DNA of 13,003 bases from a virus (Duplodnaviria > Heunggongvirae > Uroviricota > Caudoviricetes). The notes beneath the pieces were generated by a model. The model worked only from the letters and a program-made list of their open reading frames with translations, was not told the DNA's origin and did not search any database. The DNA lies in IMG/VR virus record IMGVR_UViG_2654587996_000003; one strand, given 5' to 3'. The translations under genes were made by a program, and so were the position numbers. Below are positions 1 to 13,003 of the stretch, piece by piece; position 1 is the first letter of the stretch; the number at the start of each line of letters is the position of its first letter.

Positions 1-1074
1 TCATTTGTTGATTTCAATTTTGTCCCATTCCCGTCCACGGCTGTCCCTATACCGCGCCGCCATTGAATCTGATTTATGCCCGAGAAGACGTTGAGCAAAC
101 TTATCGCCAATCTGGTTCAGGTATAGCCTCGCCGACAGGCTACGCAGTTCATGGAATGTTGGCGGGTCTCCATCAAATGAGAGTCCAGATGCATTTCTCG
201 CTTTTGTAAAATACTTCGATACTGTTTTCGGGGAAAGTGGTTCGTGATGCGTTGATGCAATTATTGTTTCACTGCTGCTGGTCTCCCTGCATTTCTGTAG
301 TGTATCAGCCAATGAGATATTGAGCGCGTCAATCGTTAGCGTCAGCGGAATGGCGAGCTTAGCCCCTGTTTTACTCTGTTCAATGTGAAGATGGTTGTCG
401 TTTATGTCTGACCATTTCATTCTGCACAAATCGCCCACTCTCTGCCCTGTAACGACAGCCAAATCCATTGCCAGCCTCAGCCAGATTGGGAGAGGTTCGG
501 CTGCATGGTAAATCGCGACATACTCATTAGCTGTCAGCCTTGAGCGCCTTACTTCTGACTTTGCTGTGCGGGTTGCTGTTACCGGATTCGTTGCCACATG
601 CCCCTCGGCTATTGCCTCACGAAAAACGTCAACAAGGGTTGACCTGATTAATTTTGCGGAAGCCGCTTTACCTTCTGCTACGTAGGTGTTTAGCATTGCT
701 GCCACCTCTTTCGTTGATATGTCAGCGAGCGGTTTGTCCGGCAATTTTCTTCGGATTGCCCTGATTTTGCTGGCGTAGTCGAGTAGAGTTTTCGGCCTGA
801 TACCCCTCTCGCTGAGGATTGTTTCATATCGGTCAAGCCACGCATGAAGAGTGATTACGTCAGCGCCTTTAATTCTGTCTATCAGTGACTCACGCCTGTT
901 CTCGGATAGTAACTCAATATTGGCCTGAATAGCCTCTGAAACTGCTATCCTTCTGTCTCTGCCTAATCCGAACTCTTTACCCGTCCTTGGGTCCCTGTAG
1001 CAGTAATATCCATTGTTTCTTATATAAAGGTTAGGGGGTAAATCCCGGCGCTCATGACTTCGCCTTCTTCCCAT
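1..1074 (-). CDS. int: Lambda-family tyrosine integrase (Int), apparently intact
   Basis: 357-aa ORF recognisably lambda-type Int (MGRRRSHERRDLPPNLYIRNNGYYCYRDPRTGKEFGLG arm-binding N-terminus). Catalytic residues appear present: R in VVTGQRVGDL, K in EQSKTGAK, H-x-x-R in PTFHELRSL, H in LLGHKSD, Y in AARYRDSRG. 23-nt overlap with xis, as in lambda. Diverged from lambda Int at many positions, so a relative rather than lambda itself. Confidence 0.95.
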   Translation of the reverse strand: MGRRRSHERRDLPPNLYIRNNGYYCYRDPRTGKEFGLGRDRRIAVSEAIQANIELLSENRRESLIDRIKGADVITLHAWLDRYETILSERGIRPKTLLDYASKIRAIRRKLPDKPLADISTKEVAAMLNTYVAEGKAASAKLIRSTLVDVFREAIAEGHVATNPVTATRTAKSEVRRSRLTANEYVAIYHAAEPLPIWLRLAMDLAVVTGQRVGDLCRMKWSDINDNHLHIEQSKTGAKLAIPLTLTIDALNISLADTLQKCRETSSSETIIASTHHEPLSPKTVSKYFTKARNASGLSFDGDPPTFHELRSLSARLYLNQIGDKFAQRLLGHKSDSMAARYRDSRGREWDKIEINK

Positions 1075-1270
1075 TTCTGATCCTCTTCAAAAGGCTACCT
1101 GTTACTGGTCGATTTAAGTCAACCTTTACCGCTGATTCGTGGAACAGATACTCTCTTCCATCCTTAACCGGAGGTGGGAATATCCTGCATTCGCGAACCC
1201 ATCGACGAACTGTTTCAGGGCTTCTTGGGCGTCGCTGGCGTGCGTTCCACTCCTGAAGTGTCAAGTACAT
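1052..1270 (-). CDS. xis: Excisionase Xis
   Basis: 72-aa ORF MYLTLQEWNARQRRPRSPETVRRWVRECRIFPPPVKDGREYLFHESAVKVDLNRPVTG..KRIRNGKKAKS, near-identical to lambda Xis as I recall it; overlaps the int start. Confidence 0.93.
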   Translation of the reverse strand: MYLTLQEWNARQRRPRSPETVRRWVRECRIFPPPVKDGREYLFHESAVKVDLNRPVTGSLLKRIRNGKKAKS

Positions 1271-1294
1271 CGCAAAGTCTCCGCAATTACACGC

Positions 1295-1317
1295 AAGAAA
1301 AAACCGCCATCAGGCGG
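1295..1317 (-). terminator. Putative intrinsic terminator (minus strand) between the 49-aa ORF and xis
   Basis: Plus-strand ccgcc-atca-ggcgg (1304-1317) forms a 5-bp GC stem; on the minus strand it is followed by TTTTTTCTT (complement of 1295-1303). The stop codon of the upstream small ORF lies in the loop. Confidence 0.4.
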
Positions 1318-1459
1318 CTTGGTGTTCTTTCAGTTCTTCAATTCGAATATTGGTTATGTCTGCATGTGCTATCTGCGCCCATATCATCCAGTGGTCATAG
1401 CAGTCATTGATGTTCTCTGCTTCGATAACTCTGTTGAATGGTTCTCCATTCCATTCCAT
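1310..1459 (-). CDS. Small hypothetical protein (49 aa) in lambda-like segment upstream of xis
   Basis: Hand-translated minus-strand ORF MEWNGEPFNRVIEAENINDCYDHWMIWAQIAHADITNIRIEELKEHQAA, open with no internal stop, ending in a hairpin terminator. AGGTGA lies immediately upstream of the ATG, too close for ideal spacing. Below the ORF-track size cutoff. Confidence 0.3.
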   Translation of the reverse strand: MEWNGEPFNRVIEAENINDCYDHWMIWAQIAHADITNIRIEELKEHQAA

Positions 1460-1490
1460 TCACCTGTGACTCGGAAGTGCATTTATCATC

Positions 1491-1520
1491 TCCATAAAAC
1501 AAAACTCGCCGTAGCGAGTT
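1491..1520 (-). terminator. Putative intrinsic terminator (minus strand)
   Basis: Inverted repeat aactcgc-cgta-gcgagtt (1503-1520), 7-bp stem; the minus-strand transcript continues UUGUUUUAUGGA. Confidence 0.3.
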
Positions 1521-1675
1521 CAGATAAAAGAAATCCCCGCGAGTGCGAGGATTGTTATTCATTGTCGATATTTACATTTATTTCGAATATCTTTACTGGG
1601 TAATCGCCAAAGTCATATGTTTTTTATTCTGTTTTATAAGCACTACCAAGTACTGCTTATTACAAATAAGAAAAG

Positions 1676-1709: not shown

Positions 1710-1719
1710 CTAAATTTAC

Positions 1720-2418
1720 TTACGGCACTGCGTTAATCAGATTACAAATACCTCTTTTGGCAGGGTCTGAATTCAACTTCTGAAAATTGGCGTTCAACAT
1801 AGCAGTGTGTAAGTGATTCTCAACCTCAAAGAATAGGTCGATTTTGCCCTCTTTGGCTGCCTGTTTCTTCCAAACATTCACTTGGTCATCAGCAATACGA
1901 CTGGCGCAAGTGAACAAGAACGAACTGCCTCTAGGAATGGATGTCGTGCTGTAATACTCACCATCTACTTCTACATATTTAGCTCGGAATGACTCTAAGG
2001 TTAGCTCATTGCCGTTCTTGACCGACTTAGCTTCTGCCTTACTTGTTTCTTCCTGCTCTTCAGAATGTTTCTGCGCCGACGTGGGTATCTCATTGGCCGC
2101 TGTTACGCTGACTGAACTCCCCAAACCGTTGAGGCCATTAATTTGGATAAGATAAGCCAGCTCCAGAGCCTTATTATCAGTGAGTTTTCCACGCATATTT
2201 ACCCACTGACGTTGAACCATTTTTAGGGTGTCTGCGTTCTCTGGGTTTTCTTTGAGGGCACTAGAATAGGCAGAGCTAAGCTGTTCGTCTAATTTTGACA
2301 GACGTTCGTTATCGCAGATTTTATGTTCGATTGCTGTCGAAGCCTTTTGGCAGTCAAAGCTGGCTGCAAATGCACCCGGCGATGCCACTAACAATGATGC
2401 CAGTAGGATATTTTTCAT
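1720..2418 (-). CDS. Secreted protein with N-terminal DUF1311 (LprI-N-terminal-like) domain; C-terminal ~110 aa unknown
   Basis: ORF-track 1720..2445. I place the start at internal ATG 2418 because GGAG sits 8 nt upstream and it yields a classic Sec signal peptide MKNILLASLLVASPGAFA/AS. The mature N-terminus FDCQKASTAIEHKICDNERLSKLDEQLSSAY...QRQWVNMRG fits the C..A.T..E..IC....L..LD..L...Y...Q..W pattern I associate with DUF1311. Confidence 0.7.
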   Translation of the reverse strand: MKNILLASLLVASPGAFAASFDCQKASTAIEHKICDNERLSKLDEQLSSAYSSALKENPENADTLKMVQRQWVNMRGKLTDNKALELAYLIQINGLNGLGSSVSVTAANEIPTSAQKHSEEQEETSKAEAKSVKNGNELTLESFRAKYVEVDGEYYSTTSIPRGSSFLFTCASRIADDQVNVWKKQAAKEGKIDLFFEVENHLHTAMLNANFQKLNSDPAKRGICNLINAVP

Positions 2419-2548
2419 ATTCACTCCATAAATACAAAAGCGCATTACTATAGCACTTAACCGATCGCTTATCTCGCCCGTTCGTCATTCTTATCTAACC
2501 AGAACATGCGGCTGCCACAGCACATGTCGAGGATCGCTGCATGTCCAG

Positions 2549-2994: not shown

Positions 2995-3010
2995 TGTTAA
3001 TTATTCCATG

Positions 3011-3325
3011 TTAATTTATTCGTATGCCTGCTCTTTCTTCATCGAGTTTTTTTAGCTTGTATCGCATAGCCCTTACTGAATAAATTGAGCGGCAGGTTGC
3101 AATTGCTATTTCTTCTGCGGAGAACTTACCGAAAAGTGATACTTCGGCTCTTGTCCAGCGTCTTCCACGAAGTCGGCTAACAATGTCAGCTCCAATCCTT
3201 GTTGCTTTCGCCATTACTGCTTTTTCAGTCCTTTCCAGTTTTTCAGCGATAACTTCAACTGGCATTGTTGCCGCTACTTCGCACAAGAAATCGACTTCCC
3301 ATTTCTCCCATGGAGTCTTTTTCAT
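3011..3325 (-). CDS. Hypothetical protein (104 aa) with an internal tandem duplication; possibly DNA-binding (speculative)
   Basis: ATG-initiated ORF 12 nt downstream of the Gp157-like gene. Two similar segments, WEKWEVDFLCEVAATMPVEVIAEKLERTEKAVMAKATRIG and WTRAEVSLFGKFSAEEIAIATCRSIYSVRAMRYKLKKL, share a W..(A)EV..(F/L)...(E/V)(V/E)IA.....R....AV/AM pattern. Confidence 0.5.
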   Translation of the reverse strand: MKKTPWEKWEVDFLCEVAATMPVEVIAEKLERTEKAVMAKATRIGADIVSRLRGRRWTRAEVSLFGKFSAEEIAIATCRSIYSVRAMRYKLKKLDEERAGIRIN

Positions 3326-3336: not shown

Positions 3337-3819
3337 TTATTTGATAAGAAGTGAAGGTTTCCCAACTTTGAGTTGAGCGCCGGGGATATTTATTCCTGCT
3401 TTTAGTTGGTGTTTGATTGCCAGTTTGTCGGCTTTAATTGTCGTTTCAAACTCAACGTATTCAGGAGGAAGGGCGCTTGAGTCGATGATTTCTACAGTTT
3501 CTGACGGTTTGCGGATTGTTACTTGGTGAATACCTGCTCGAATCTTTTTCTTGCCAACCATTTCAAGCGATGACGCTATATACGCCATAATGCTGTCAAT
3601 CTTATTTTGAATTACTGCGGCTCGTTCATTCAGTGACTTTGCCTCGTCCTTGAGGCGTTCAGCATAACCAGATTCATTTTTAATAATGGCGAGAAGTTGC
3701 TCTATTTTATCGGTAAATTCTCCTTCCATTCCTTCTATTGTGTCAGCAATCATCTCTGGCTCTAAATCTGAATCCATCAATTTTGCGTATTCATTGGCTA
3801 TTTCATATAGTTTGCTCAC
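3337..3819 (-). CDS. Gp157-like (or Mu-Gam-like) accessory protein of a RecT recombination module
   Basis: ORF-track 3337..3825, where the M is a TTG codon. A better start is GTG at 3819, preceded by GGAGG at 6-nt spacing. Coiled-coil-like N-terminus plus a beta-rich C-terminus, sitting directly downstream of recT; recalled from memory as the siphovirus Gp157 family. Start overlaps the recT remnant stop. Confidence 0.6.
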   Translation of the reverse strand: MSKLYEIANEYAKLMDSDLEPEMIADTIEGMEGEFTDKIEQLLAIIKNESGYAERLKDEAKSLNERAAVIQNKIDSIMAYIASSLEMVGKKKIRAGIHQVTIRKPSETVEIIDSSALPPEYVEFETTIKADKLAIKHQLKAGINIPGAQLKVGKPSLLIK

Positions 3820-4372
3820 TGGCAACCTCCAGTTTCGCTTTGCATTCTATGTAAATGGCTTGTACGTTCTGCTGCAATTTCATTCCAGATGTCAGGCGAT
3901 ATGCTTCTGCAAAATATCGCTTCAAATCATCCATGTTTTCTGCCTGAGCCATTTCATCACAAAGAAGTTGTGCTTTTTCCATTATTTCCTGCTGGCGTTT
4001 CCGTTCATCTTCGCGGATATCTTCCTCTGATTTGTGCGGCATAACTGGTTCCTGATGCATACCTTCATCTTCGTTAAGCAGGTGAATGGCATTATCCAGT
4101 CGCTGGGCTTTAGGCCAGTATTTGCTGGCGCGTTTAACTATGGTTTTACGCGCCATCTCTTCCCAGAATGTCTTCCACGGTCCATTCTTTGCCTTGCTCG
4201 TTGCTTCCACAGCTTTAATTTCTGCCAGACTCATTTCTTCAGTCAGGTAGTCACCATCTGCTGTTTTAACCGTGCAATAACCTCCAACAATAGAGCCTCG
4301 CTCACCAAATGCGTTGTATTTGTGGGTTGGTGCTGAATCAAGGCCATTTGATTCATAGGTGTCGTTTGAGTA
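3803..4372 (-). pseudogene. recT: RecT-family single-strand annealing recombinase, 5-prime truncated (C-terminal ~189 codons only)
   Basis: The ORF-track fragment (3803..4234) contains ..NGPWKTFWEEMARKTIVKRASKYWP.., matching the RecT motif ..NGPWVTHWEEMAKKTAIRRLFKYLP... I hand-extended the frame upstream of the Met (..[35 protein letters not shown]..) and it stays RecT-like until an in-frame stop at 4373-4375. No N-terminal ~150 aa and no start codon. Confidence 0.7.
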
Positions 4373-4488
4373 TCAAAGGCGCATGTGATCAGCTACGGCG
4401 CTGGACATACGCTGGCGGTAAGCAATGGAAAGGGCTGATGACTCGCCGCGAGATTGAGCGTGAAGTCTGTTTGTGGGGGCAACAATGA
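4366..4488 (+). pseudogene. Phage lysozyme (endolysin R, P21/DLP12-type) 3-prime remnant, last ~40 codons only
   Basis: Hand translation of the frame ending at TGA 4486-4488 gives ..[38 protein letters not shown], which I recognise as the C-terminus of P21/RrrD-type lysozymes. The stop overlaps the Rz ATG (ATGA), as in lambdoid lysis cassettes. An in-frame stop at 4357-4359 and the recT-derived sequence lie immediately upstream. Confidence 0.6.
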
Positions 4489-4928
4489 GCAGAGTAACCG
4501 CGATTATCTCCGCTCTGGTTATCTGCATCATCGTCTGCCTGTCATGGGCGGTTAATCATTACCGTGATAACGCCATCACTTACAAAAAGCAGCGTGATAA
4601 GGCCACATCCACAATCGCTGACATGCAGAAGCGTCAACGTGATTTAGCTGAACTCGATGCCAGATATACAAAGGAGCTTGCTGATGCTAACGCGACTATC
4701 GAAAGTCTTCGTGCTGATGTTTCTGCTGGTCGTAAGTGGCTGCACGTCAAAGCAGTCTGTCCGGACAAGCATAAAACCACCGCCGCCTCCGGCGTGGATG
4801 ATGCTTCCAGCCCCAGACTTACTGACACCGCTCAACGGGATTATTTCGTTCTCAGAGAGCGCATCGAAACCATAACTAACCAATTGAATGGCCTGCAAGA
4901 GTATGTGAGATCACAGTGTTCATATTAG
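4485..4928 (+). CDS. Rz: Rz i-spanin (inner-membrane spanin subunit)
   Basis: ORF-track 4473..4928 (GTG). The ATG at 4485 gives [34 protein letters not shown]..., near-identical at the N-terminus to lambda Rz; N-terminal TM helix followed by a coiled-coil region. Confidence 0.9.
4684..4875 (+). CDS. Rz1: Rz1 o-spanin lipoprotein, embedded in the +1 frame of Rz
   Basis: ORF-track 4657..4875. Internal ATG at 4684 gives [20 protein letters not shown]|TSKQSV...KPPPPPAW...TPLNGIIS: lipobox Cys at residue 20, proline-rich mature part, matching lambda Rz1 in length and motifs. Confidence 0.85.
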
Positions 4929-4966: not shown

Positions 4967-5341
4967 ATGTCTCAATACGCGCGCGCCGCTTTAATTGCTT
5001 ATTATTTGGTTGCTGATAATTCAATATCCCCTCGTGATGCATGGGATGCTGCTGTCGCTGAGGTTACAGAAAGCGAATCGGCAAGAAAGAAGGGATGCCC
5101 AAGGGCAACGTTTCTCGCTCTGGCGGATAGCGGTTATCTGAAGAATGTAAAACCACATCATGGGGAGAAAAAGATCGGTAAGTTGTACCAAAGGGCAATT
5201 GAAGTTGCGAATCTGATTCTTGATTTACCCGGAATTAGCAAAGCTGAGCTAGTTGATAAAACTTGCTATAAAGACAGGCAAGGGGCTTATGACATTGCTC
5301 TAACTCTCGCTCAGTGCGGATTACTCCAGCGTCCTCAATAA
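4967..5341 (+). CDS. Hypothetical protein (~124 aa) between the lysis cassette and cos; no family recognised
   Basis: ORF-track 4916..5341 (GTG overlapping the Rz end). First ATG at 4967 gives MSQYARAALIAYYLVADNSISPRDAWDAAVAEVTESESARKKGCPRATFLALADSGYL...; start choice is uncertain. Followed 19 nt later by a hairpin plus T-tract terminator. Confidence 0.5.
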   Translation: MSQYARAALIAYYLVADNSISPRDAWDAAVAEVTESESARKKGCPRATFLALADSGYLKNVKPHHGEKKIGKLYQRAIEVANLILDLPGISKAELVDKTCYKDRQGAYDIALTLAQCGLLQRPQ

Positions 5342-5359
5342 GATATTAAGTGATTTATG

Positions 5360-5383
5360 GCCTCGCTTTTAGCGGGGCTTTTT
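5360..5383 (+). terminator. Putative intrinsic terminator after the 124-aa ORF
   Basis: gcctcgc-tttta-gcggggc (7-bp stem with one G-U pair) followed by TTTTT at 5379-5383. Confidence 0.5.
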
Positions 5384-5770
5384 CATATCTGAATCTCACC
5401 ATGCATATCATCACCTGACTGGAACGTCAGGAGAATTCGTTACGGGGATTCGATAAAGGTATTCAAGCCTGACACATTATGCGCTGTATCGTCGCCGTAT
5501 TCCCGCATTAACCATGACCGTAGCCCGACGGGGAATTCCTTCTGCGCGAGTGTGCGGGAATAATCAAAAACGATGCACACCGGGTTTTTACCGCGTTTAT
5601 GATTCGCGGGTTTGTCCCTCATGCTCGCCAGTCCTGTGCGGGGGTGGAAGAAACAGGACGTGTATTCAGGTCTGTGCGACCGTGGTCGCACGACTTTGGT
5701 CGTTCAGATATTAAATCCCATTGCGAAGTAAACCCGAATTGCTGGCGGGTCCTTTCCGGCAATCCAGAAC

Positions 5771-5965
5771 GTTACGGGGCGGAAGGCGCGCGGGTTTTCG
5801 CTATTTATGAAAATTTTCCGGTTTAAGGCGTTTCCGTTCTTCTTCGCCGTAACTTAATGTTTTTATTTAAAACACCCTCTGAAAAGAAAGGAAACGACAG
5901 GTGCTGAAAACGAGCTTTTTGGCCTCTGTCGTTTCCTTTCTCTGTTTTTGTCCGTGGAATGAACA
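5771..5965. promoter_or_regulatory. cos: Lambda-type cos site: cosN (about 5777-5788) plus cosB with terminase-binding R elements, immediately upstream of Nu1
   Basis: Sequence gttacg GGGCGGAAGGCG CGCGGGTTTTCGCTATTTATGAAAATTTTCCGGTTTAAGGCGTTTCCGTTCTTCTTCG...GAAAGGAAACGACAG...CTGTCGTTTCCTTTC matches the lambda left end and cosB as I recall them, except within the 12-nt cosN core (lambda GGGCGGCGACCT). Inverted R2/R1 CGTTTCC elements are present. Confidence 0.75.
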
Positions 5966-6700
5966 ATGGAAGTCAACAAAAAGCAGCTGGCTGACATTTT
6001 CGGCGCGAGTATCCGTACCATTCAGAACTGGCAGGAGCAGGGAATGCCCGTTCTGCGGGGTGGTGGCAAGGGTAATGAAGTGCTTTATGACTCTGCCGCC
6101 GCCATAAAATGGTATGCCGAAAGGGATGCTGAAATTGAGAACGAAAAGCTGCGCCGGGAAGTTGAAGAACTGCGGCAGGCCAGCGAGACAGATCTCCAGC
6201 CAGGGACTATTGAGTACGAACGCCATCGACTTACGCGTGCGCAGGCCGACGCACAGGAGCTGAAAAATGCCAGAGACTCCGCTGAAGTGGTGGAAACCGC
6301 ATTCTGTACTTTCGTGCTGTCGCGGATCGCAGGTGAAATTGCCAGTATTCTCGACGGGATCCCCCTGTCGGTGCAGCGGCGTTTTCCGGAACTGGAAAAC
6401 CGACATGTTGATTTCCTGAAACGGGATATCATCAAAGCCATGAACAAAGCAGCCGCGCTGGATGAACTGATATCGACTTTCTCCGGGGATTATCTCCGCG
6501 TAACTGACAACAAGGGGAAAACGCACGACGTGCTGACCGGAAGTGATGACGGTCGCCACAGCAACACGTCTCTGACGTGGGGAGCTGGCGTGCAGTTTAA
6601 CCCGACCGAATCCGTGGCCATTGATATTGCTTATGAAGGCTCCGGCAGTGGTGACTGGCGCACTGACGGTTTCATCGTGGGTGTCGGTTATAAATTCTGA
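5966..6700 (+). pseudogene. nu1: In-frame chimera: terminase small subunit Nu1 (residues 1 to ~169) fused to the C-terminal ~75 residues of outer-membrane protein Lom
   Basis: Residues 1-169 (MEVNKKQLADIFGASIRTIQNWQEQGMPVLRGGGKGNEVLYDSAA...NKAAALDELI) match lambda Nu1. From about nt 6474 the protein switches to ..TSLTWGAGVQFNPTESVAIDIAYEGSGSGDWRTDGFIVGVGYKF, the Lom/Ail-family C-terminal beta-strands. A strong terminator follows, as after lom in lambda. Confidence 0.8.
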
Positions 6701-6726
6701 TTAGCCAGGTAACACAGTGTTATGAC

Positions 6727-6753
6727 AGCCCGCCGGTTCAGGCGGGCTTTTTT
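6727..6753 (+). terminator. Intrinsic terminator downstream of the lom remnant
   Basis: agcccgcc-ggttca-ggcgggct (8-bp GC-rich stem) followed by TTTTTT. Confidence 0.7.
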
Positions 6754-6764
6754 GTGGGGTGAAT

Positions 6765-9700
6765 ATGGCAGTAAAGATTTCAGGTGTACTGAAAGACGGC
6801 ACAGGAAAACCGGTACAGAACTGCACAATCCAGCTGAAAGCAAAACGTAACAGCACCACGGTGGTGGTGAACACGCTGGCCTCAGAAAATCCGGATGAAG
6901 CCGGGCGTTACAGCATGGACGTTGAGCACGGTCAGTACAGCGTTATTCTGTTGGTGGAGGGGTTCCCGCCATCACATGCCGGGACCATTACCGTGTATGA
7001 AGATTCCCGACCCGGTACGCTGAATGATTTTCTCGGTGCCATGACGGAGGATGATGCCCGTCCGGAGGCACTACGCCGTTTTGAACTGATGGTGGAAGAG
7101 GTGGCGCGTAACGCGTCCGCGGTGGCACAGAACACGGCAGCCGCGAAGAAGTCAGCCAGCGATGCCGGCACATCAGCCCGTGAGGCGGCAACCCATGCGA
7201 CTGATGCTGCAGGCTCAGCACGTGCAGCCAGCACATCAGCCGGGCAGGCCGCGACGTCGGCTCAGTCAGCATCTTCCAGCGCAGGAACGGCATCAACAAA
7301 GGCCAGTGAAGCGGAAAAAAGTGCTGCCGCTGCAGAGTCCTCAAAAAGCGCGGCAGCCACCAGTGCCGCTGCGGCGAAAACGTCGGAAACGAATGCGGCA
7401 GCGTCACAACAATCAGCAGCCACTTCTGCATCCGCCGCGACCATGAAGGCGTCAGAAGCTGCCACCTCAGCCCGGGATGCGGCGGCCTCAAAAGAGGCAG
7501 CGAAATCATCAGAAACGAACGCATCATCAAGCGCCAGTAGTGCCGCTTCCTCGGCAACGGCAGCAGGCAATTCCGCGAAGGCGGCAAAGACGTCCGAGAC
7601 AAACGCCAGGTCTTCTGAAACGGCAGCGGGACAGAGCGCCTCGGCTGCGGCAGGCTCAAAAACAGCGGCTGCGTCGTCTGCCAGTGCAGCGTCAACAAGT
7701 GCCGGGCAGGCCTCAGCCAGTGCCACCGCCGCCGGAAAATCGGCAGAAAGTGCCGCATCGTCTGCTTCAACAGCCACAACGAAGGCTGGCGAAGCCACTG
7801 AACAGGCCAGCGCAGCAGCGAGGTCTGCTTCCGCAGCGAAGACATCCGAGACGAACGCGAAAGCGTCGGAAACCAGCGCAGAATCCTCAAAAACGGCTGC
7901 CGCATCGTCCGCCAGTTCGGCGGCGTCATCGGCATCATCGGCGTCTGCTTCAAAAGATGAGGCGACCAGACAAGCGTCCGCAGCGAAGGGCAGCGCCACG
8001 ACAGCATCCACGAAGGCGACAGAGGCAGCTGGCAGTGCGACGGCGGCAGCACAGAGCAAAAGTACGGCGGAATCCGCGGCAACGCGCGCCGAGACAGCGG
8101 CAAAACGGGCAGAGGATATTGCATCCGCCGTGGCGCTTGAGGATGCGAGCACGACGAAAAAGGGGATAGTACAGCTCAGCAGCGCGACCAACAGCACGTC
8201 TGAAACGCTGGCGGCAACGCCAAAGGCAGTAAAAGCAGCCTATGACAATGCAGAGAAACGTCTGCAGAAAGACCAGAACGGCGCTGATATACCCGATAAG
8301 GGACGCTTCCTGAACAACATTAACGCGGTCAGTAAAACAGACTTTGCTGATAAGCGTGGTATGCGTTATGTGCGGGTTAACGCTCCTGCAGGTGCAACAT
8401 CTGGAAAATATTATCCTGTTGTTGTTATGCGTTCTGCTGGCTCAGTAAGCGAACTGGCATCAAGGGTCATTATCACCACGGCAACGCGAACCGCAGGCGA
8501 TCCGATGAATAACTGCGAGTTTAACGGATTTGTTATGCCTGGTGGCTGGACTGACAGGGGGCGTTATGCTTATGGAATGTTCTGGCAATATCAAAACAAT
8601 GAACGAGCCATCCACTCAATAATGATGAGTAATAAGGGCGATGATTTGCGCTCTGTGTTCTATGTTGATGGCGCTGCTTTCCCTGTTTTTGCGTTTATCG
8701 AAGATGGCCTGTCAATATCCGCACCTGGTGCTGATCTCGTTGTTGATGATACGACCTATAAGTTTGGGGCAACAAATCCGGCGACTGAATGTATCGCGGC
8801 GGACGTTATCCTTGATTTTAAGAGTGGGCGTGGTTTTTATGAGTCCCATTCGTTAATCGTTAACGATAACTTGTCGTGCAAAAAACTTTTTGCCACAGAC
8901 GAAATTGTAGCGCGTGGTGGTAATCAGATTCGAATGATAGGTGGGGAGTATGGGGCATTATGGCGTAATGATGGCGCTAAAACTTACCTGCTGCTTACCA
9001 ATCAAGGTGATGTTTATGGTGGATGGAATACATTAAGACCGTTTGCTATTGATAACGCAACCGGCGAACTGGTTATTGGAACCAAGCTGTCTGCAAGTCT
9101 GAACGGTAACGCATTGACAGCAACAAAGCTGCAAACGCCAAGACGGGTTTCTGGTGTTGAGTTTGATGGTTCCAAAGATATTACTTTAACCGCCGCGCAT
9201 GTGGCTGCTTTTGCCAGAAGGGCAACGGATACATATGCCGATGCGGATGGTGGCGTTCCCTGGAATGCCGAATCAGGCGCTTACAATGTCACCCGCTCTG
9301 GCGACAGCTATATTCTGGTTAACTTCTATACCGGAGTCGGAAGTTGCCGGACCCTGCAGATGAAGGCGCATTACAGAAATGGTGGTCTGTTCTACCGTTC
9401 TTCAAGAGACGGTTATGGTTTTGAGGAAGACTGGGCAGAAGTTTATACCTCGAAAAATCTTCCACCAGAAAGCTACCCAGTCGGCGCACCAATCCCGTGG
9501 CCATCAGATACCGTTCCGTCTGGTTATGCCCTGATGCAGGGGCAGACTTTTGACAAATCTGCTTACCCGAAACTTGCAGCCGCTTATCCGTCAGGCGTGA
9601 TCCCTGATATGCGTGGCTGGACGATTAAGGGCAAACCTGCCAGTGGTCGGGCCGTATTGTCTCAGGAACAGGACGGCATTAAATCGCATACCCACAGCGC

Positions 9701-10115
9701 CAGCGCATCCAGTACAGATTTGGGGACGAAAACCACATCGTCGTTTGATTACGGCACTAAATCCACGAATAACACCGGGGCACATACACACAGTGTTAGC
9801 GGTACGGCTGCTTCAGCCGGTGCACATACCCATTCGATGACATTTGTTTCAGGTGGTTCCAGTGGTGCTCCGGGAAGTGGATCACCTGATTATTCTAAAT
9901 ACAGTGTTAACACTTCTTCTGCAGGCGCTCATACGCACTCTGTATCGGGTACTGCTGCAAGCGCAGGTGCACATGCACATACTGTCGGTATTGGTGCTCA
10001 TACGCACTCTGTTGCGATTGGCTCACATGGACACACCATCACCGTTAACGCTGCTGGTAACGCGGAAAACACCGTCAAAAACATCGCATTTAACTACATT
10101 GTGAGGCTTGCATAA
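6765..10115 (+). CDS. stf: Side tail fibre protein (Stf; StfR/lambda-Stf-like), apparently full length (~1116 aa)
   Basis: ORF-track 6759..10115 (GTG); ATG at 6765 gives [37 protein letters not shown]..., the conserved Stf N-terminus. Long Ala/Ser/Thr-rich repetitive shaft; C-terminal GAHTHS-repeat receptor-binding region; stop overlaps the tfa ATG. Confidence 0.9.
7110..8150 (+). repeat. Ala/Ser/Thr-rich quasi-periodic coding repeats within the stf shaft
   Basis: Recurring peptide blocks such as [69 protein letters not shown] and [26 protein letters not shown]-rich DNA here generates long stop-free ORFs in other frames on both strands. Confidence 0.6.
9778..10045 (+). repeat. His-containing GAHTHS(V)[12 protein letters not shown] repeats in the stf C-terminal region
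   Basis: Repeated motifs [59 protein letters not shown]. The DNA copies differ at synonymous positions, so the repeat is conserved at protein level. Confidence 0.6.
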
Positions 10116-10699
10116 TGGCATTCAGAATGAGTGAACAACCACGGACCATAAAAATTTATAATCTGCTGGCCGGAACTAATGAATTTATTGGTGAAGGTGA
10201 CGCATATATTCCGCCTCATACAGGTCTGCCTGCAAACAGTACCTATATTGCACCGCCAGATATTCCGGCTGGTTTCGTGGCTGTTTTCAACAGTGATGAG
10301 GCATCGTGGCATCTCGTTGAAGATCATCGGGGTAAAACGGTTTATGACGTAGCGTCAGGGGACGCGTTATTTATTTCTGAACTCGGTCCGTTACCGGAAA
10401 ATGTTACCTGGTTATCGCCGGAAGGGGAGTTTCAGAAGTGGAACGGCACGGCCTGGGTGAAAGATGCAGAAGCAGAAAAACTGTTCCGGATCCGGGAGGC
10501 GGAAGAAACAAAAAACAGCCTGATGCAGGTAGCCAGTGAGCATATTGCGCCGCTTCAGGATGCTGCAGATCTGGAAATTGCAACGGAGGAAGAAACCTCG
10601 TTGCTGGAAGCCTGGAAGAAGTATCGGGTATTGCTGAACCGTGTTGATACATCAGTAGCACCGGATATTGAGTGGCCTGCTGTCCCTGTTATGGAGTAA
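10115..10699 (+). CDS. tfa: Tail fibre assembly protein Tfa
   Basis: 194-aa [57 protein letters not shown]..., near-identical to lambda Tfa as I recall it; start overlaps the stf stop. Confidence 0.92.
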
Positions 10700-10802: not shown

Positions 10803-11591
10803 TTAAGCATCACGTATTGCCAATCTGATTTTTGACTGATACCAATTGGGGCCTTCTGCAATTATTTCTTCCTCAACATGCATGATGGGATGCATTTCAA
10901 TTTCAGAGTTTTTGACTTTCAGATCTAGTCCATATTTTTTTGAAATTTGTAAAACTTCATTTTTGAAATCCTTATCTGCGAAAGGTGAAATCCTTATTTC
11001 TTCCAACAGATTATTAAGAGATACAGGGACTAGTTTTCCCTTTACAGGTGGAGTGTTAAAGGTATTCTCTTGAAAAATAGCTCTAAACTCTTTTTCGTAT
11101 TCGAAAGATGGTCTCTTGTTAAAGAATACATCTGATTCTGGATTGTATTGTTTTATCCAGAAATTTTTGACGTATTTTACGTGTTTTAATTGTAGTTTGT
11201 TTAGATTATTATTTTCAAGTTGGCTTTGGAGGTTTTTTTTCTTTGATTTTATGACAACGCCTTTAGCGGGGTTTTTACAATACAGCTTCCACATAGCTTC
11301 AGATTCATGTTCGTTACAATGCCAGCAACTTATATATGTCCTCTCGCTTATTTCCTTAAGTGTCTTTAAATTGAATGCCATGAAAGGATCTAAGTCCATG
11401 CCGGCACCATGAGTAGCGCATAGTTTTTCCTGTGTCTCAATGAATTTTTTATAGCCAGTATGTCCCCAAGCAAATTCACCTTCGAACGGATCTTCAAAAT
11501 TTTTTGCTGAGCAAAAAAATAAAGCATTTTGTTCGAGTAACATAGAGAATTTCTCTATGTCAAGGTATCGCCATATATACTCAGTGTGCAT
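10803..11591 (-). CDS. Hypothetical protein (262 aa), DUF2971-like N-terminal motif; AT-rich cargo gene
   Basis: ORF-track 10803..11606, where the M is a TTG codon. ATG at 11591 is preceded by AGGAG at 5-nt spacing and gives MHTEYIWRYLDIEKFSMLLEQNALFFCSAKNFEDPFEGEF..., matching the Y.Y....l..lL....l.f.....F.DP.E block I associate with DUF2971. Lys/Asn-rich and visibly much more AT-rich than flanking phage DNA. Confidence 0.6.
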   Translation of the reverse strand: MHTEYIWRYLDIEKFSMLLEQNALFFCSAKNFEDPFEGEFAWGHTGYKKFIETQEKLCATHGAGMDLDPFMAFNLKTLKEISERTYISCWHCNEHESEAMWKLYCKNPAKGVVIKSKKKNLQSQLENNNLNKLQLKHVKYVKNFWIKQYNPESDVFFNKRPSFEYEKEFRAIFQENTFNTPPVKGKLVPVSLNNLLEEIRISPFADKDFKNEVLQISKKYGLDLKVKNSEIEMHPIMHVEEEIIAEGPNWYQSKIRLAIRDA

Positions 11592-11716
11592 GATAGCTCC
11601 TTGCAATATAACTATTTCTATCTGTTCATTTGTACTTAAAAAGGATTGAGTAGCCTGAACAGTTCTATCCGTAAATATACCAGATAGAAGAGTTGTACAA
11701 TAACAAATCCTCCGTA

Positions 11717-11759
11717 TAAGAACCAGCCATAATAGTCTGGTTCTTAAGGTTTTTTTTTC
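11717..11759 (+). terminator. Strong hairpin plus T9 intrinsic terminator on the plus strand, in the intergenic region between the two minus-strand cargo genes
   Basis: taagaaccag-ccataatagt-ctggttctta (10-bp stem, 11717-11746) followed by ggTTTTTTTTT (11750-11759). The T-tract is on the plus strand only. Confidence 0.5.
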
Positions 11760-11800
11760 GAGGGGGGTAACCTACGATTCGTCCCCATATCGGCGATAAA

Positions 11801-13003
11801 TTAGGCTTGTACCAACGCTTCTGTTTCTGTGAGTGAAATTTGATAGCGTTTTACTGCCTCAGCAAAGGCGTGCGCGGCATCTGCATTTGATACCATATAT
11901 TCTTCAGTTACCCCTGTTTGAGAATGGAAAGTAATATTTCCATAAATGCAAATAGGGATTTGGTAGTTGTCTTTAAAACGACGGTCTGGTGAGCCATTCT
12001 TATTCGTTTTCGCCCATGTATAACCATCTATGCGTGAGTCACTGGGAACACCTTCTTCCTCATGGAATCTTAGATATTCTGAACTAATTTGTAATTCGCG
12101 TAAATCAATCAGAGCGAATGCTCCATCAGCTCGTGGTATGACTGCAACTCCAGGATAAAGCAAAATATCGTCTCCATTTACATTTTCAAACCTCATCGCA
12201 CGCCCTGTAAATTGAATGAAATCCGTTGAACTAAAATCAAAGGTAACTGGGTGACGATTAACAGACCGGGTTGCTAATGTTCTTTCAGCAAACTGGTCTG
12301 TAGCTTTATCTGCAGTAATATCCCATTTTTTGACACTCGATTTTAACATATCAAATGCATGGACCATCGCTGCATATGCGCGCTGTGAAGCATCACTGCT
12401 CTCGAATGTTATGGCTATTTTTGTGCTGTCTTCCCATGAAACTAGGCGAGATATCTCAGCTTGGGTTAGGGGGAGTAGTGTCTCAAGTTCTGCGATGCGT
12501 CGTTTGTAAAACCAACGGAATAGACTTGATTTGCGTCGAGCCAGCTCGCTTTTTTGTTTTGATTCTTCGGCAAGAGCCTCTTGAAGATCTGCTTTTATCT
12601 CTGCTCTTTGTTCTCGTGCTTTAGCAATCAAATCTCGTAAAGGTAAAAGGGAGGTACTTGTAAGGACTTCTACCGAAGCGCTGGATATTTCATTCATGCC
12701 AGCTACAGGCATATATATTTTAGCGTTCGATGGTGTGTTTTCTGGAGATGACCCAGACTCCAAATGAGGTTCTGTAGGGGCTGGATTTAATGGATTGGTA
12801 ACTGAGTATCCATCATCATAGGGCAAGGTAGGTGTAGTATAAGATAAGCCTGTGCCCGGTAATCCGACAGTTGCTCTAACCCCTTTTTTACCAACATTGA
12901 CAGTTGCGCCAGGCACGCCAATGCTTGCACTTATTCCACGCTTGCCAATGTTGAGTCGAACGCCAGGAAATAGAGTAAAGGTTTGTCTGAAACGAAGAGA
13001 CAT
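11801..13003 (-). CDS. Hypothetical protein (400 aa) with N-terminal DUF4236-like domain; central coiled-coil-like segment; C-terminal ~200 aa unknown
   Basis: Start codon is the last three bases of the window. N-terminus MSLRFRQTFTLFPGVRLNIGKRGISASIGVPGATVNVGKKGVRATVGLPGTGLSYTT has the repeated G-x-R/K...G glycine-rich pattern I associate with DUF4236. A charged helical stretch (REQRAEIKADLQEALAEESKQKSELARRK) follows. Composition is lower in GC than the tail-fibre genes. Confidence 0.65.
   Translation of the reverse strand: MSLRFRQTFTLFPGVRLNIGKRGISASIGVPGATVNVGKKGVRATVGLPGTGLSYTTPTLPYDDGYSVTNPLNPAPTEPHLESGSSPENTPSNAKIYMPVAGMNEISSASVEVLTSTSLLPLRDLIAKAREQRAEIKADLQEALAEESKQKSELARRKSSLFRWFYKRRIAELETLLPLTQAEISRLVSWEDSTKIAITFESSDASQRAYAAMVHAFDMLKSSVKKWDITADKATDQFAERTLATRSVNRHPVTFDFSSTDFIQFTGRAMRFENVNGDDILLYPGVAVIPRADGAFALIDLRELQISSEYLRFHEEEGVPSDSRIDGYTWAKTNKNGSPDRRFKDNYQIPICIYGNITFHSQTGVTEEYMVSNADAAHAFAEAVKRYQISLTETEALVQA

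What the first reader, a model, noticed from the sequence alone, without database searches (positions are those of the whole stretch)
1..13003. Selective retention pattern: integration, tail-fibre and cargo genes intact while regulatory, replication and morphogenesis genes are deleted
Across the window the surviving intact genes are int/xis, the spanins, stf/tfa and the unrecognised cargo ORFs, while two large deletions have removed everything needed for lytic growth. Intact int/xis with catalytic residues preserved suggests the element may still be excisable. An intact receptor-binding fibre and its chaperone can be donated to superinfecting lambdoid phages by recombination. The pattern is what is expected if host-beneficial cargo is being maintained by selection in a domesticated prophage.
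Basis: inference. Interest (0 to 1): 0.4.

Follow-up and report, generated by a model that had tools for sequence, protein, structure and literature searches.

The report
Decaying lambda-like prophage remnant in E. coli
The window is most of a 16-kb leftover of a lambda-like virus in the E. coli chromosome. It lost its growth and particle-building genes through two deletions, an ordinary kind of remnant, and I found no evidence that selection chose what was kept.

Summary
The description is mostly right. The window is the core of a ~16.3-kb defective lambdoid prophage inserted at the 3' end of sibB, between mdtA and ibsB. Two deletions of about 12 kb (recT to R) and 18.6 kb (nu1 to lom) removed regulation, replication, holin/endolysin and all head and tail genes. 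int, xis, Rz/Rz1, stf, tfa and the accessory ORFs are full length.

Corrections: the "lom" ORF is an in-frame Nu1::Lom chimera; a small gene next to xis is frameshifted; cos is intact; the att sites and two more cargo genes lie outside the window.

The selection reading is not supported. Only 13 of 5,426 complete genomes carry the element, all descended from one already-deleted ancestor (0-14 SNPs per 16 kb). Private lesions hit Rz, Gp157 and three of the four cargo genes. dN/dS of about 0.5 is not distinguishable from neutral. Two deletions of these sizes placed at random spare int/xis and stf-to-attR 11.5% of the time.

int/xis/att look competent, but their promoters and regulators are deleted. 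Tail-fibre donation by recombination is plausible and has experimental precedent.

The same architecture is known from K-12 DLP12/Rac/Qin, and the enrichment pattern is published. The element is an ordinary member of a known kind.

The parts
1..1074 (-). int, a lambda-type tyrosine integrase (357 aa), intact
   Evidence: Pfam Phage_integrase, Arm-DNA-bind_1 and SAM-like domains. 97% identical to phage Gally Int and 75% to lambda Int, with all six catalytic residues conserved. Two non-synonymous variants among carriers: N356D and V73I.
1052..1270 (-). xis, excisionase (72 aa), intact
   Evidence: Pfam Exc 2.4e-40 across the full profile. Invariant in all 13 carriers.
1310..1482 (-). orf55-like small gene, frameshifted pseudogene
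   Evidence: A 5-nt tandem duplication (GAATG) relative to lambda, Gally and ev099. Present in 12 of 13 carriers and absent in GPEC709.
1720..2445 (-). LprI/DUF1311-like secreted protein (accessory gene of the early-left arm)
   Evidence: Pfam LprI 2e-05; phrog_4675 3.9e-94, function unknown. The same gene sits at the same place in active phage ev099.
2549..3819 (-). Promoterless early-left genes: DUF2737 (2549-2716), DUF5405 (2713-2994), abc1-like 104-aa ORF (3011-3325), Gp157 (3337-3819)
   Evidence: Pfam hits. Collinear with phage Gally at 92-95%. Gp157 has a 1-bp deletion in carrier RM9387.
3803..4366 (-). recT', the C-terminal ~190 codons only
   Evidence: Pfam RecT matches profile positions 84-186 only. 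The alignment to the 303-aa Gally recT ends at window 4366.
4366..4372 (.). Deletion junction 1 (recT' joined to 'R), ~11.8 kb missing: gam/kil/N, immunity, replication, nin, Q, holin and most of R
   Evidence: The recT side ends at 4366 and the R side starts at 4371-4372, with 4-5 nt of filler (TGAGT) and no IS remnant. As a single piece, the junction is found only in the 13 carriers.
4372..4488 (+). 'R, the last 38 codons of an RrrD-type endolysin
   Evidence: Translation. 92.6% identical to the 3' end of ev099 lysozyme plus Rz. Annotated as a partial gene by PGAP.
4485..4928 (+). Rz i-spanin (147 aa), intact in the window
   Evidence: Pfam Phage_lysis 3.1e-40, profile positions 10-125 of 126. 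Carrier TK3887 has a 5-bp deletion at 4908-4912.
4684..4875 (+). Rz1 o-spanin lipoprotein, embedded in the +1 frame of Rz, intact
   Evidence: Translation [24 protein letters not shown]...PPPPPAW, with a lipobox and a proline-rich mature part like lambda Rz1.
4967..5341 (+). DUF6979 accessory gene at the position of lambda bor
   Evidence: Pfam DUF6979 3.2e-28; phrog_5039, function unknown. A terminator-like hairpin follows at 5359-5379.
5440..5622 (-). 60-aa hypothetical ORF
   Evidence: Annotated by PGAP. No family hit.
5747..5960 (+). Intact cos: cosQ 5747-5759, cosN 5777-5788 (GGGCGGAAGGCG), cosB up to the nu1 start
   Evidence: Read against the lambda ends. The cosN variant is identical to that of active phage PhiR46_1 and the E24377A prophage. 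cosB/nu1 are 97.4% identical to lambda.
5966..6700 (+). Chimeric ORF: Nu1 (terminase small subunit, residues 1-~169) fused in frame to the last ~76 residues of Lom
   Evidence: Pfam Phage_Nu1 covers residues 1-164 over the whole profile (1.4e-100), and Ail_Lom covers residues 167-244 at profile positions 122-199. PGAP names it Ail/Lom.
6473..6476 (.). Deletion junction 2 (nu1' joined to 'lom), ~18.6 kb missing: the end of nu1, A, all head and tail genes through J, and the 5' two thirds of lom
   Evidence: The lambda match ends at lambda 700 and the phage lom/stf matches start at 6473. As a single piece, found only in the 13 carriers. E24377A has the same nu1 breakpoint plus 17 more bp of lom.
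6727..6748 (+). Terminator-like hairpin after lom, upstream of stf
   Evidence: 8-bp stem with 7 GC pairs followed by a T run.
6765..10115 (+). stf, side tail fibre (1116 aa), intact; contains an Ala/Ser-rich repeat region at ~7100-8200
   Evidence: Pfam phage_tail_N, Gp34_trimer, Collar and fibre repeat. Aligns 1-1117 with Stf of the full-length prophage in GZ04-0086 (95%) and with E24377A StfR (93.6%). No disrupting lesion in any of the 13 carriers.
10115..10699 (+). tfa, tail fibre assembly chaperone (194 aa), intact
   Evidence: Pfam Caudo_TAP 2.3e-44. 93.5% identical to lambda tfa DNA. Rfam IS009 lies inside it at 10458-10656.
10803..11543 (-). DUF2971 cargo gene, a candidate single-gene anti-phage defence protein (PADLOC PDC-S31)
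   Evidence: PADLOC PDC-S31 1.3e-20; Pfam DUF2971. Frameshifted (+1 T in a T8 run) in carrier ECO8855. Also broken in the GZ04-0086 prophage.
11801..13003 (-). DUF4236 cargo gene (400 aa), function unknown
   Evidence: Pfam DUF4236 on residues 3-56; phrog_17982 full length, function unknown. Interrupted by IS3 in carrier L725. No relative in the PDB by sequence.

Best explanation
The window is the core of a ~16.3-kb defective lambda-like prophage integrated at the 3' end of the sibB small-RNA gene, between mdtA and ibsB.

Origin. A ~47-kb mosaic lambdoid phage (P22/Gally-like early-left arm, lambda-like cos, nu1, lom, stf and tfa) was reduced by two illegitimate deletions with 0-2 bp of microhomology. 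One runs from inside recT to inside R. The other runs from nu1 codon ~170 to lom codon ~128. The second junction, or its precursor, also occurs in an unrelated prophage, so it may have been inherited or imported by recombination.

Why these genes survive. What is left is whatever lay outside the deletion endpoints: the two ends of the prophage and a 2.1-kb island around cos. Those genes look intact because the remnant is young, not because selection picked them.

History of the 13 copies. All descend from one already-deleted ancestor. Homologous recombination in the flanks has since placed the element, or its surroundings, in several chromosomal backgrounds. Private frameshifts, a small deletion and an IS insertion are now eroding it.

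Expression (inferred). The late operon remnant ('R, Rz/Rz1, nu1'-'lom, stf, tfa) has lost pR' and Q. The early-left operon, including int and xis, has lost pL, N and cII. These genes are therefore probably silent. They can matter only as recombination substrates for incoming lambdoid phages, or if Int/Xis is supplied or induced in trans.

Cargo (inferred). The four leftward b-region genes (DUF2971/PDC-S31, DUF4236, a 213-aa ORF and a Vsr/PD-(D/E)xK-type nuclease) are ordinary phage accessory genes, plausibly anti-phage defence. They may give some benefit, but the population data do not show that.

Shown versus inferred. Shown: the anatomy, junctions, att and cos sites, single origin, flank mosaicism and lesions. 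Inferred: transcriptional silence, neutrality of the retention, and a defence role for the cargo.
For: Anatomy and junctions:
- Gene order, domains and breakpoints.
- att cores with a 7-bp overlap, and an empty attB in RM8082.
- SibB (Rfam RF00113) ends exactly on the att core and scores 142 bits in both the lysogen and the empty site.
- Intact cos.

Single origin:
- Both junctions occur only in the same 13 of 5,426 genomes.
- The element differs by 0-14 SNPs per 16.3 kb among carriers, against 0-221 in the 11.9-kb left flank and 0-204 in the 8.8-kb right flank.
- The window is the consensus haplotype, one SNP from M8, M18 and C10/C11.

Recombination in the flanks:
- The flank haplotype shared next to the element has variable length: 0.5 / 1.3 / 1.7 / 4.5 / >11.9 kb on the left and 0.56 / 1.1 / 1.85 / >8.8 kb on the right.
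- This att-adjacent kilobase is variable in E. coli at large.
- Relationships among carriers are incongruent with an unlinked locus.

Ongoing decay:
- Lesions in orf55, Gp157, Rz, DUF2971, DUF4236 (IS3) and the nuclease gene.

No signal of selection:
- dN/dS 0.45-0.5, p = 0.13-0.23; geometric null 0.115.

Expression:
- No excess of promoter-like sites near junction 1 or upstream of stf, and a terminator lies before stf.

Known pattern:
- K-12 DLP12 has the same layout: intD, xisD'..., rzpD/rzoD, borD, nohD, aaaD', tfaD', cargo.
- The enrichment of integrase and tail-fibre genes in incomplete prophages, and 'deletion shielding', are published (PMC7744054).
Against: - None of the 13 copies has a disrupting lesion in int, xis, stf or tfa, which make up 42% of the coding length. 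With six lesions the chance of that is 0.58^6, about 0.04, a weak hint of constraint on those genes. Three of the six lesions are 1-bp indels (two in homopolymer runs, one in a CC pair) that could be sequencing errors. Counting only the other three gives p of about 0.2.
- A nearly identical 16-kb segment in at least 7 flank backgrounds, from cattle, mice, a rat, chicken and humans on several continents, could reflect positive selection or active mobility rather than passive recombination.
- Several independent or nested deletions elsewhere also keep nu1 and lom'/stf/tfa. This recurrence fits non-random retention, although the search was biased towards such cases.
- Transcriptional silence is inferred from the lambda paradigm and a crude consensus scan. 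No expression data exist.
Confidence: 0.7

Rival explanations
1. One reading: a domesticated prophage. The host keeps the remnant because the cargo genes (and perhaps the tail fibre or integrase) are beneficial. Purifying selection keeps them intact while lytic functions were purged.
For: - The lytic, replication and morphogenesis genes are exactly what is missing.
- One cargo gene matches a candidate defence family, PDC-S31.
- Homologues of the nuclease gene sit in defence islands next to BrxC/D, HNH and helicase genes.
- Another prophage at the same att site carries SMODS+SLATT in the same slot.
- No lesions in int, xis, stf or tfa in any of the 13 copies.
- The element persists in several backgrounds.
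- General precedent exists in the literature (PMC7744054).
Against: - The element is rare, 0.24% of complete genomes.
- There is a single origin, so the deletion pattern is one observation.
- Three of the four cargo genes are each disrupted in one carrier, and DUF2971 is also broken in another prophage.
- dN/dS cannot be distinguished from 1.
- Useless fragments and a spanin pair without partners are retained as well.
- The geometric null gives 11.5%.
- stf/tfa and int/xis have lost their promoters.
Confidence: 0.2
2. A helper-dependent mobile mini-element. The remnant keeps int, xis, both att arms, an intact cos and the DNA-binding part of Nu1. A superinfecting lambdoid phage could therefore excise it and package it (as multimers) and spread it between strains, like a minimal satellite.
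For: - Nearly identical copies occur in at least 7 flank backgrounds and many hosts.
- cosQ/N/B is intact, with a cosN variant used by an active phage.
- The att cores and arms are intact.
- A close relative has a clean empty attB.
- Integrase enrichment in short prophages has been proposed to reflect such elements (PMC7744054).
Against: - All carriers share at least 0.5 kb of identical flank on both sides, in a region that varies across E. coli, and the shared tracts have graded lengths. That is the signature of homologous recombination, not of site-specific insertion into different attB contexts.
- There is no replication module, no regulator and no packaging-redirection gene.
- 16 kb is far below the lambda packaging range (established knowledge).
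- The promoters for int and xis are deleted.
Confidence: 0.07
3. A laboratory or assembly artefact.
For: None found.
Against: Thirteen complete assemblies from different laboratories, hosts and countries share both junctions to the base. They also carry private SNPs and indels.
Confidence: 0.01

Closest known systems
Cryptic lambdoid prophages of E. coli K-12, above all DLP12 (also Rac and Qin)
   Same: - Integrase and excisionase at one end.
- A lysis-gene remnant with Rz/Rz1.
- cos plus the Nu1 homologue (nohD) kept.
- Terminase A through the tail genes deleted, with tail-fibre or tfa remnants and cargo genes next to attR.
- These are documented recombination donors for lambda in exactly these two modules, R-Rz-cos-nu1 and stf-tfa (PMC3945230).
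   Different: - A different att site: the 3' end of sibB, against argU for DLP12.
- Here stf and tfa are complete, while the immunity, replication and Q regions are gone entirely.
- The nu1 remnant is fused in frame to lom.
- The cargo differs: DUF2971, DUF4236, a 213-aa ORF and a nuclease, against emrE, appY and ompT.
- The remnant is rare and young, not fixed in a lineage.
Bacteriophage lambda and active relatives (ev099, Gally, PhiR46_1, mEp332)
   Same: - Gene order.
- Int with an identical arm-binding N-terminus, and a P arm 92.6% identical to lambda's.
- cos architecture.
- nu1 97% identical and tfa 93.5% identical to lambda.
- stf-tfa 95-99% identical to mEp332, PhiR34_1 and 2H10.
   Different: - About 30 kb is missing, so the element cannot grow lytically.
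- The core att sequence differs from lambda's, and also from Gally's despite 97% Int identity.
- cosN is GGGCGGAAGGCG rather than GGGCGGCGACCT.
Published generalisation on incomplete prophages (Khan, Burmeister & Wahl 2020, PMC7744054, which cites Bobay et al. 2014 for the earlier small-prophage enrichment and for deletion shielding)
   Same: Lysis, terminase, portal and structural genes are lost, while integrase and tail-fibre genes are enriched. Retention of border genes through 'deletion shielding' is proposed there.
   Different: That work is statistical, across about 1,400 prophages. Here a single element was followed at base resolution and showed no measurable selection.
Phage satellites (PICI, P4-like elements)
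   Same: Size of 10-18 kb, an integrase, and a cos site in the cos-type PICIs.
   Different: There is no replication or primase module, no AlpA-type or repressor control, and no capsid-size or TerS redirection genes. The content is plainly a deletion derivative of a full phage.

Membership tests
Defective (cryptic) lambdoid prophage | Bounded by hybrid att sites next to a tyrosine integrase, with an empty attB known in other strains | tested here: met
   attL CCTTAAATAAGGTAAG, attR CCTTTAATAAGGAAAG and attB CCTTAAATAAGGAAAG in RM8082. About 5,220 of 5,426 genomes match the empty-site sequence as one unbroken place, so the site is uninterrupted there.
Defective (cryptic) lambdoid prophage | Lambda gene order and high DNA identity to active lambdoid phages in the retained modules | tested here: met
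Defective (cryptic) lambdoid prophage | Lacks genes essential for lytic growth (immunity and replication, Q, holin and endolysin, terminase large subunit, head and tail genes) | tested here: met
   No such ORFs or domains are present. The junctions at 4366-4372 and 6473-6476 account for about 30 kb missing.
Domesticated prophage under purifying selection | dN/dS significantly below 1 in the retained genes across carriers | tested here: inconclusive
   9-10 non-synonymous against 6 synonymous changes. dN/dS is 0.45-0.5, with p = 0.13-0.23 against neutrality. Power is very low because the copies are nearly identical.
Domesticated prophage under purifying selection | The putatively beneficial genes are free of inactivating lesions in all carriers | tested here: not met
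   DUF2971 has a +1 frameshift (ECO8855), DUF4236 an IS3 insertion (L725) and the nuclease gene a -1 frameshift (RM9387). Also hit: Rz (-5 bp, TK3887), Gp157 (-1, RM9387) and orf55 (+5 nt in 12 of 13 carriers). Caveat: the 1-bp indels (two in homopolymer runs, one in a CC pair) may be sequencing errors.
Domesticated prophage under purifying selection | Long-term vertical persistence at an orthologous site in a clade | tested here: inconclusive
   The element is in 13 of 5,426 genomes. It differs among carriers by at most 0.09%, while the flanks differ by up to 1.9%. Relationships are incongruent between the flanks and an unlinked locus. A whole-genome phylogeny could not be built with these tools.
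Domesticated prophage under purifying selection | Expression of, and host benefit from, the retained genes | not testable with these tools
   Only consensus promoter scans were possible, and they showed no excess over shuffled sequence.
Lambda-type Int/Xis site-specific recombination module able to excise | Int with the catalytic R-K-H-R-H-Y residues and the arm-binding domain; Xis; core sites with an identical overlap; P and P' arms | tested here: met
   for the proteins, for the cores, and for the arms (P arm 92.6% and P' arm 75.5% identical to lambda).
Lambda-type Int/Xis site-specific recombination module able to excise | Regulatory input that expresses int and xis together (pL with N antitermination) | tested here: not met
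   The whole region from the 5' end of recT to R, which holds pL, N, cI, cro and cII in every relative, is deleted. No promoter-like excess lies upstream.
Two-component spanin (Rz/Rz1) | An Rz with an N-terminal membrane anchor, and an embedded +1-frame Rz1 lipoprotein with a lipobox and a proline-rich mature part | tested here: met
   Pfam Phage_lysis and the Rz1 translation with LVVSGC.
Two-component spanin (Rz/Rz1) | Functional context: a holin and an endolysin in the same lysis cassette under a late promoter | tested here: not met
   The holin is absent and the endolysin is reduced to 38 codons.
Phage satellite (PICI / P4-like) | Its own replication module and helper-responsive regulation | tested here: not met
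   No primase, replication initiator or AlpA-like domains in any ORF.
Anti-phage defence cargo (PADLOC candidate PDC-S31) | Sequence membership of the DUF2971 protein in the PDC-S31 models | tested here: met
   PDLC04993 at 1.3e-20, plus three further PDC-S31 models. The family is itself only a candidate, and no paper in the library mentions it.
Anti-phage defence cargo (PADLOC candidate PDC-S31) | Demonstrated protection against phage | not testable with these tools
   This needs plaque assays with the cloned gene.

The most novel reading that the evidence does not exclude
The 16-kb remnant is not passive debris but a minimal helper-dependent element. Its retained int/xis/att, its intact cos (cosN variant GGGCGGAAGGCG) and its Nu1 DNA-binding fragment would let superinfecting lambdoid phages excise, package and spread it. 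Alternatively, the Nu1 fragment could act as a packaging decoy. Either would explain nearly identical copies in many E. coli backgrounds. A related open point is the nu1-side breakpoint at lambda 697-700, which is shared by three different junction types and may mark a deletion hot spot that repeatedly produces such remnants.
Probability: 0.07. Interest if true: 0.6.

Novelty: new member of a known kind. Interest (0 to 1): 0.2.

Why it matters
Intact-looking genes in a prophage remnant are easily read as evidence of domestication. In this case comparative genomics could test that reading, and three ordinary factors explain the pattern without invoking selection: the position of the genes near the prophage ends, the young age of the remnant, and a single deletion history.

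The element is still of practical interest in three ways:
- It is a recombination reservoir. It holds a complete side tail fibre and chaperone, and a cos-nu1 island, both 93-99% identical to active phages.
- It marks a variable cargo slot next to attR in phages that use the sibB site. That slot holds candidate defence genes worth testing.
- It shows how homologous recombination in the flanks moves a dead prophage among lineages, or changes the background around it.

Tried and rejected
- Search for an intact parent prophage. The best recT-side match (OkiPb01684) is another scrambled prophage at a different site. The 213-aa and nuclease cargo genes occur in no other complete genome. No parent was found.
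- Phage Gally as the active user of this att site. Its Int is 97% identical, but its attP core differs (TTTAGGTGAATAAG against TTTAATAAGGTAAG).
- Promoter and terminator scans. Counts equal the shuffled expectation, so they are uninformative beyond showing no excess.
- NCBIfam, PHROGs and PDB sequence searches for the cargo proteins gave only 'unknown function'. A literature search for PDC-S31 found nothing.
- Independent Int-mediated insertions as the explanation for the multi-lineage distribution. Disfavoured, because all carriers share identical att-adjacent flanks of graded length in a region that is otherwise variable.
- Flank identity as a test of whether the EC416, E24377A and window junctions descend from one event. 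It does not discriminate, because an intact-tail phage is at least as similar.
- IS-mediated deletion. No IS remnant lies at either junction.
- Structure prediction and fold search for the cargo were not run, because they are peripheral to the finding.

Full report
**What the window is.**
- The 13,003 bases match 13 of 5,426 complete E. coli genomes end to end at 99.8% identity or better. In strain M8 they lie between mdtA and the ibs/sib toxin-antitoxin repeats upstream of yegL.
- Gene order and domains are those of an integrated lambda-like phage: int, xis, leftward early genes ending in a truncated recT; then a truncated endolysin, Rz/Rz1, an accessory gene, cos, nu1, lom, stf, tfa and leftward 'b-region' ORFs.
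- The left arm is 92-97% identical to the P22-like phage Gally. The cos-nu1 and lom-stf-tfa parts are 93-99% identical to lambda, ev099, mEp332 and relatives. The parent was therefore a typical mosaic lambdoid.

**The observation, gene by gene.**
- Int (357 aa) is 97% identical to Gally Int and 75% to lambda Int. The arm-binding N-terminus is identical and all six catalytic residues are conserved.
- Xis covers the whole Exc profile.
- Rz covers the whole Phage_lysis profile. The embedded +1-frame Rz1 has a signal peptide, the lipobox LVVSGC and a proline-rich mature part.
- Stf (1116 aa) has the N-terminal prophage tail-fibre domain, a Gp34-type trimerisation domain, a collar and fibre repeats. 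It aligns over its full length with Stf of a full-length prophage.
- Tfa is complete.

**The two deletions.**
- Junction 1 is at 4366-4372. The recT match to Gally stops at 4366, leaving about 190 of 303 codons. The endolysin match to ev099 starts at 4371, leaving the last 38 codons. Four or five filler bases lie between, with no IS remnant. About 11.8 kb is missing: the rest of the pL operon, N, immunity, replication, nin, Q, the late promoter, the holin and most of R.
- Junction 2 is at 6473-6476. The lambda match ends at lambda ~697-700 in nu1, and phage lom matches start at 6473. About 18.6 kb is missing: A through J and the 5' two thirds of lom.

- The ORF annotated 'Ail/Lom' is an in-frame chimera. 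Residues 1-164 match the entire Nu1 profile, and residues 167-244 match the last 78 positions of the Lom profile.
- The small gene next to xis carries a 5-nt tandem duplication and is frameshifted.
- cos is intact. cosQ and cosB are lambda-like. The cosN variant GGGCGGAAGGCG is the one used by active phage PhiR46_1.
- The element extends beyond the window. Comparing M8 with the empty site of strain RM8082 gives attB CCTTA-AATAAGG-AAAG, attL ...AATAAGG-TAAG and attR CCTTT-AATAAGG..., a 7-bp overlap as in lambda. The element is therefore about 16.3 kb.
- The P arm is 92.6% identical to lambda's.
- Rfam places the 3' end of SibB exactly on the core, and SibB scores the same in the lysogen and the empty site. 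The phage integrates at the 3' end of sibB and rebuilds it.
- Two further cargo genes lie between the window end and attR: a 213-aa ORF and a 355-aa protein with a Vsr/REase_MTES_1575-type nuclease domain.

**Is the retention selective? Population evidence.**
- Each junction occurs, as a single piece, only in the same 13 genomes. All copies therefore descend from one already-deleted ancestor, and the 'pattern' is a single historical observation.
- I aligned the 13 loci with 12-kb flanks, plus the empty-site strain. The element differs by 0-14 SNPs per 16.3 kb. One strain, L725, shows 25-36 because of an imported, mostly synonymous allele tract in lom'/stf/tfa.
- The left flank differs by up to 221 SNPs per 11.9 kb, and the right flank by up to 204 per 8.8 kb.
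- The window itself is the consensus haplotype.
- The flank haplotype shared next to the element has graded lengths: 0.5, 1.3, 1.7, 4.5 and >11.9 kb on the left, and 0.56, 1.1, 1.85 and >8.8 kb on the right.
- The att-adjacent kilobase is variable in E. coli at large. Only 429 of 5,422 records are at least 99% identical to the carriers' haplotype. The shared flanks are therefore real hitch-hiking.
- At an unlinked locus, M8 groups with carriers A31, C10 and C11. At the left flank it is identical to GPEC709, ZYB39 and the empty-site strain.
- Homologous recombination has therefore either carried the element with pieces of flank into new backgrounds, or replaced the flanks around a vertically inherited element. 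I cannot separate these two without whole-genome phylogenies. Neither requires the element's own integrase.

**Signs of decay.** Among the 13 copies there are these lesions:
- a 5-bp deletion truncating Rz (TK3887);
- an IS3 insertion in DUF4236 (L725);
- a +1 frameshift in DUF2971 (ECO8855);
- -1 frameshifts in Gp157 and in the nuclease gene (RM9387);
- the orf55 duplication in 12 of 13 copies.

So three of the four cargo genes are each broken in one carrier. DUF2971 is also broken in the unrelated full-length prophage of GZ04-0086, which carries the same lom-stf-tfa-DUF2971-DUF4236 module at a tRNA-Pro site. The three 1-bp indels (two in homopolymer runs, one in a CC pair) may be sequencing errors. 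The IS insertion and the 5-bp deletion are not.

**Tests for selection.**
- Outside the L725 tract there are 9-10 non-synonymous and 6 synonymous changes. This gives dN/dS of 0.45-0.5, not different from neutrality (p = 0.13-0.23).
- Two non-overlapping deletions of the observed sizes, placed at random in a 46.8-kb prophage, leave int/xis and everything from stf to attR untouched in 11.5% of trials.
- The one hint of constraint is that no lesion falls in int, xis, stf or tfa, which make up 42% of the coding length. That gives p of about 0.04 with six lesions and about 0.2 with the three secure ones.

**Recurrence and precedent.**
- Queries spanning junction 2 also found other prophages in which nu1 or the start of A is joined to lom. 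There are five junction types in all. These queries could only find endpoints close to the window's.
- Three types share the nu1-side breakpoint within 3 bp. EC416 breaks at lambda 700, with 6-bp microhomology ATACCG. E24377A breaks at lambda 697. The window type also breaks at 697 and equals the E24377A junction minus 17 bp, which happens to restore the frame.
- This means either nested secondary deletions from one old event, or a breakage hot spot. Flank identity does not decide between them. I leave this unexplained.
- K-12 DLP12 shows the same architecture: intD, xisD'..., rzpD/rzoD, borD, cos-nohD, a terminase fragment, tfa remnants and cargo.
- The loss of lysis, terminase and portal genes, the enrichment of integrase and tail-fibre genes in incomplete prophages, and 'deletion shielding' of border genes are all published (PMC7744054).

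**How it most likely works now.**
- By the lambda paradigm, stf, tfa, Rz/Rz1 and the chimera depended on pR' and Q, and int/xis depended on pL and N. All of these are deleted.
- The consensus scan shows no excess of promoter-like sites, and a terminator precedes stf. I infer these genes are silent.
- Their realistic role is as recombination substrates. Lambda captures DNA from the R-Rz-cos-nu1 region of DLP12 and from the stf-tfa of Rac and Qin at 10^-6 to 10^-4 (PMC3945230). The L725 tract shows that this element's stf-tfa does exchange alleles.
- The att and Int/Xis parts look competent, and RM8082 shows a clean empty site in an otherwise matching background. Excision probably needs Int/Xis expression from outside.

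**Cargo.**
- DUF2971 matches the PADLOC candidate PDC-S31 at 1.3e-20.
- DUF4236 and the others fall in PHROGs of unknown function or have no hits.
- Homologues of the nuclease are widespread in gamma-proteobacteria. They sit in defence-island contexts, next to BrxC/D, HNH and helicase genes in one case and beside a pyocin gene in another.
- A different prophage at the same att site carries SMODS+SLATT in the same slot.
- A defence role is a reasonable inference, but it is untested.

**Verdict.** The description is largely correct but incomplete. The element is an ordinary, young, decaying cryptic lambdoid prophage of a well-known kind.

Noticed in passing
window 5966-6700: The gene RefSeq annotates as 'Ail/Lom family outer membrane protein' is an in-frame Nu1(1-~169)::Lom(C-terminal ~76 aa) chimera created by the deletion. 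It keeps the Nu1 DNA-binding and assembly parts but lacks the last ~11 residues.
   Followed up: yes
window 6473-6476; L008 (E24377A) ~14300; L034 (EC416) ~737-742; L035; L036: There are five different nu1/A-to-lom deletion junctions in E. coli genomes. Three share the nu1-side breakpoint within 3 bp (lambda 697-700). The window junction equals the E24377A junction minus 17 bp. Nested descent or a hot spot: unresolved.
   Followed up: partly
L001 11920-11935 (attL) and 28213-28228 (attR), i.e. 65-80 bp left of window position 1 and ~3.2 kb right of its end; L009 ~30920-30935 (attB): The att core has a 7-bp overlap, AATAAGG, and lies on the 3' end of the SibB antitoxin sRNA, immediately upstream of the ibsB start codon. 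SibB is rebuilt at attR, but the ibsB ORF is separated from its upstream region by the prophage.
   Followed up: partly
window 5777-5788: The cohesive-end sequence is GGGCGGAAGGCG rather than lambda's GGGCGGCGACCT. The same variant occurs in active phage PhiR46_1 and in the E24377A prophage.
   Followed up: partly
L009 (RM8082) against L018/L019 (GPEC709, ZYB39): A cattle strain has both flanks essentially identical to two carriers (0-1 and 2-5 SNPs) but a clean empty attB. This is either a never-lysogenised sibling or a precise excision.
   Followed up: partly
L017 (L725), window-equivalent 6575-6989, 7850-7979 and 10231-10468: One carrier has an imported allele tract in lom'/stf/tfa (19 synonymous and 4 non-synonymous differences), plus an IS3 insertion in DUF4236. 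This is direct evidence that the tail-fibre module exchanges alleles with other prophages.
   Followed up: partly
window 10803-13003 and L001 25579-27640; L025 16136-17576: The b region next to attR is a variable cargo slot in phages that use this att site. Here it holds DUF2971 (PADLOC PDC-S31), DUF4236, a 213-aa ORF and a Vsr/PD-(D/E)xK-type nuclease. In strain CE0007a it holds SMODS+SLATT. The 213-aa and nuclease genes occur in no other complete E. coli genome.
   Followed up: partly
window 7100-8200: The Ala/Ser-rich repeat region of stf is 62% G+C with strong AT skew. It produces long spurious ORFs on the opposite strand and in other frames (378, 311 and 230 aa), which should not be taken for genes.
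   Followed up: no
window 10458-10656: A full-length match to Rfam IS009 (RF02111, 221 bits) lies inside the tfa coding sequence. Its meaning is unclear.
   Followed up: no
L006 (phage mEp332) 8292-11692: The stf of the laboratory phage mEp332 is interrupted by a frameshift after about codon 185, reminiscent of the stf frameshift of lambda PaPa.
   Followed up: no
L002 (RefSeq NC_049953, phage ev099) 1-33: The public record starts with a Nextera adapter sequence (TCGTCGGCAGCGTCAGATGTGTATAAGAGACAG) in place of the cos end. This is an assembly artefact in the reference.
   Followed up: no
window 1445-1449: The frameshifting GAATG duplication in the orf55-like gene is polymorphic. Carrier GPEC709 has the intact 168-nt gene, through either reversion or the ancestral state.
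   Followed up: partly
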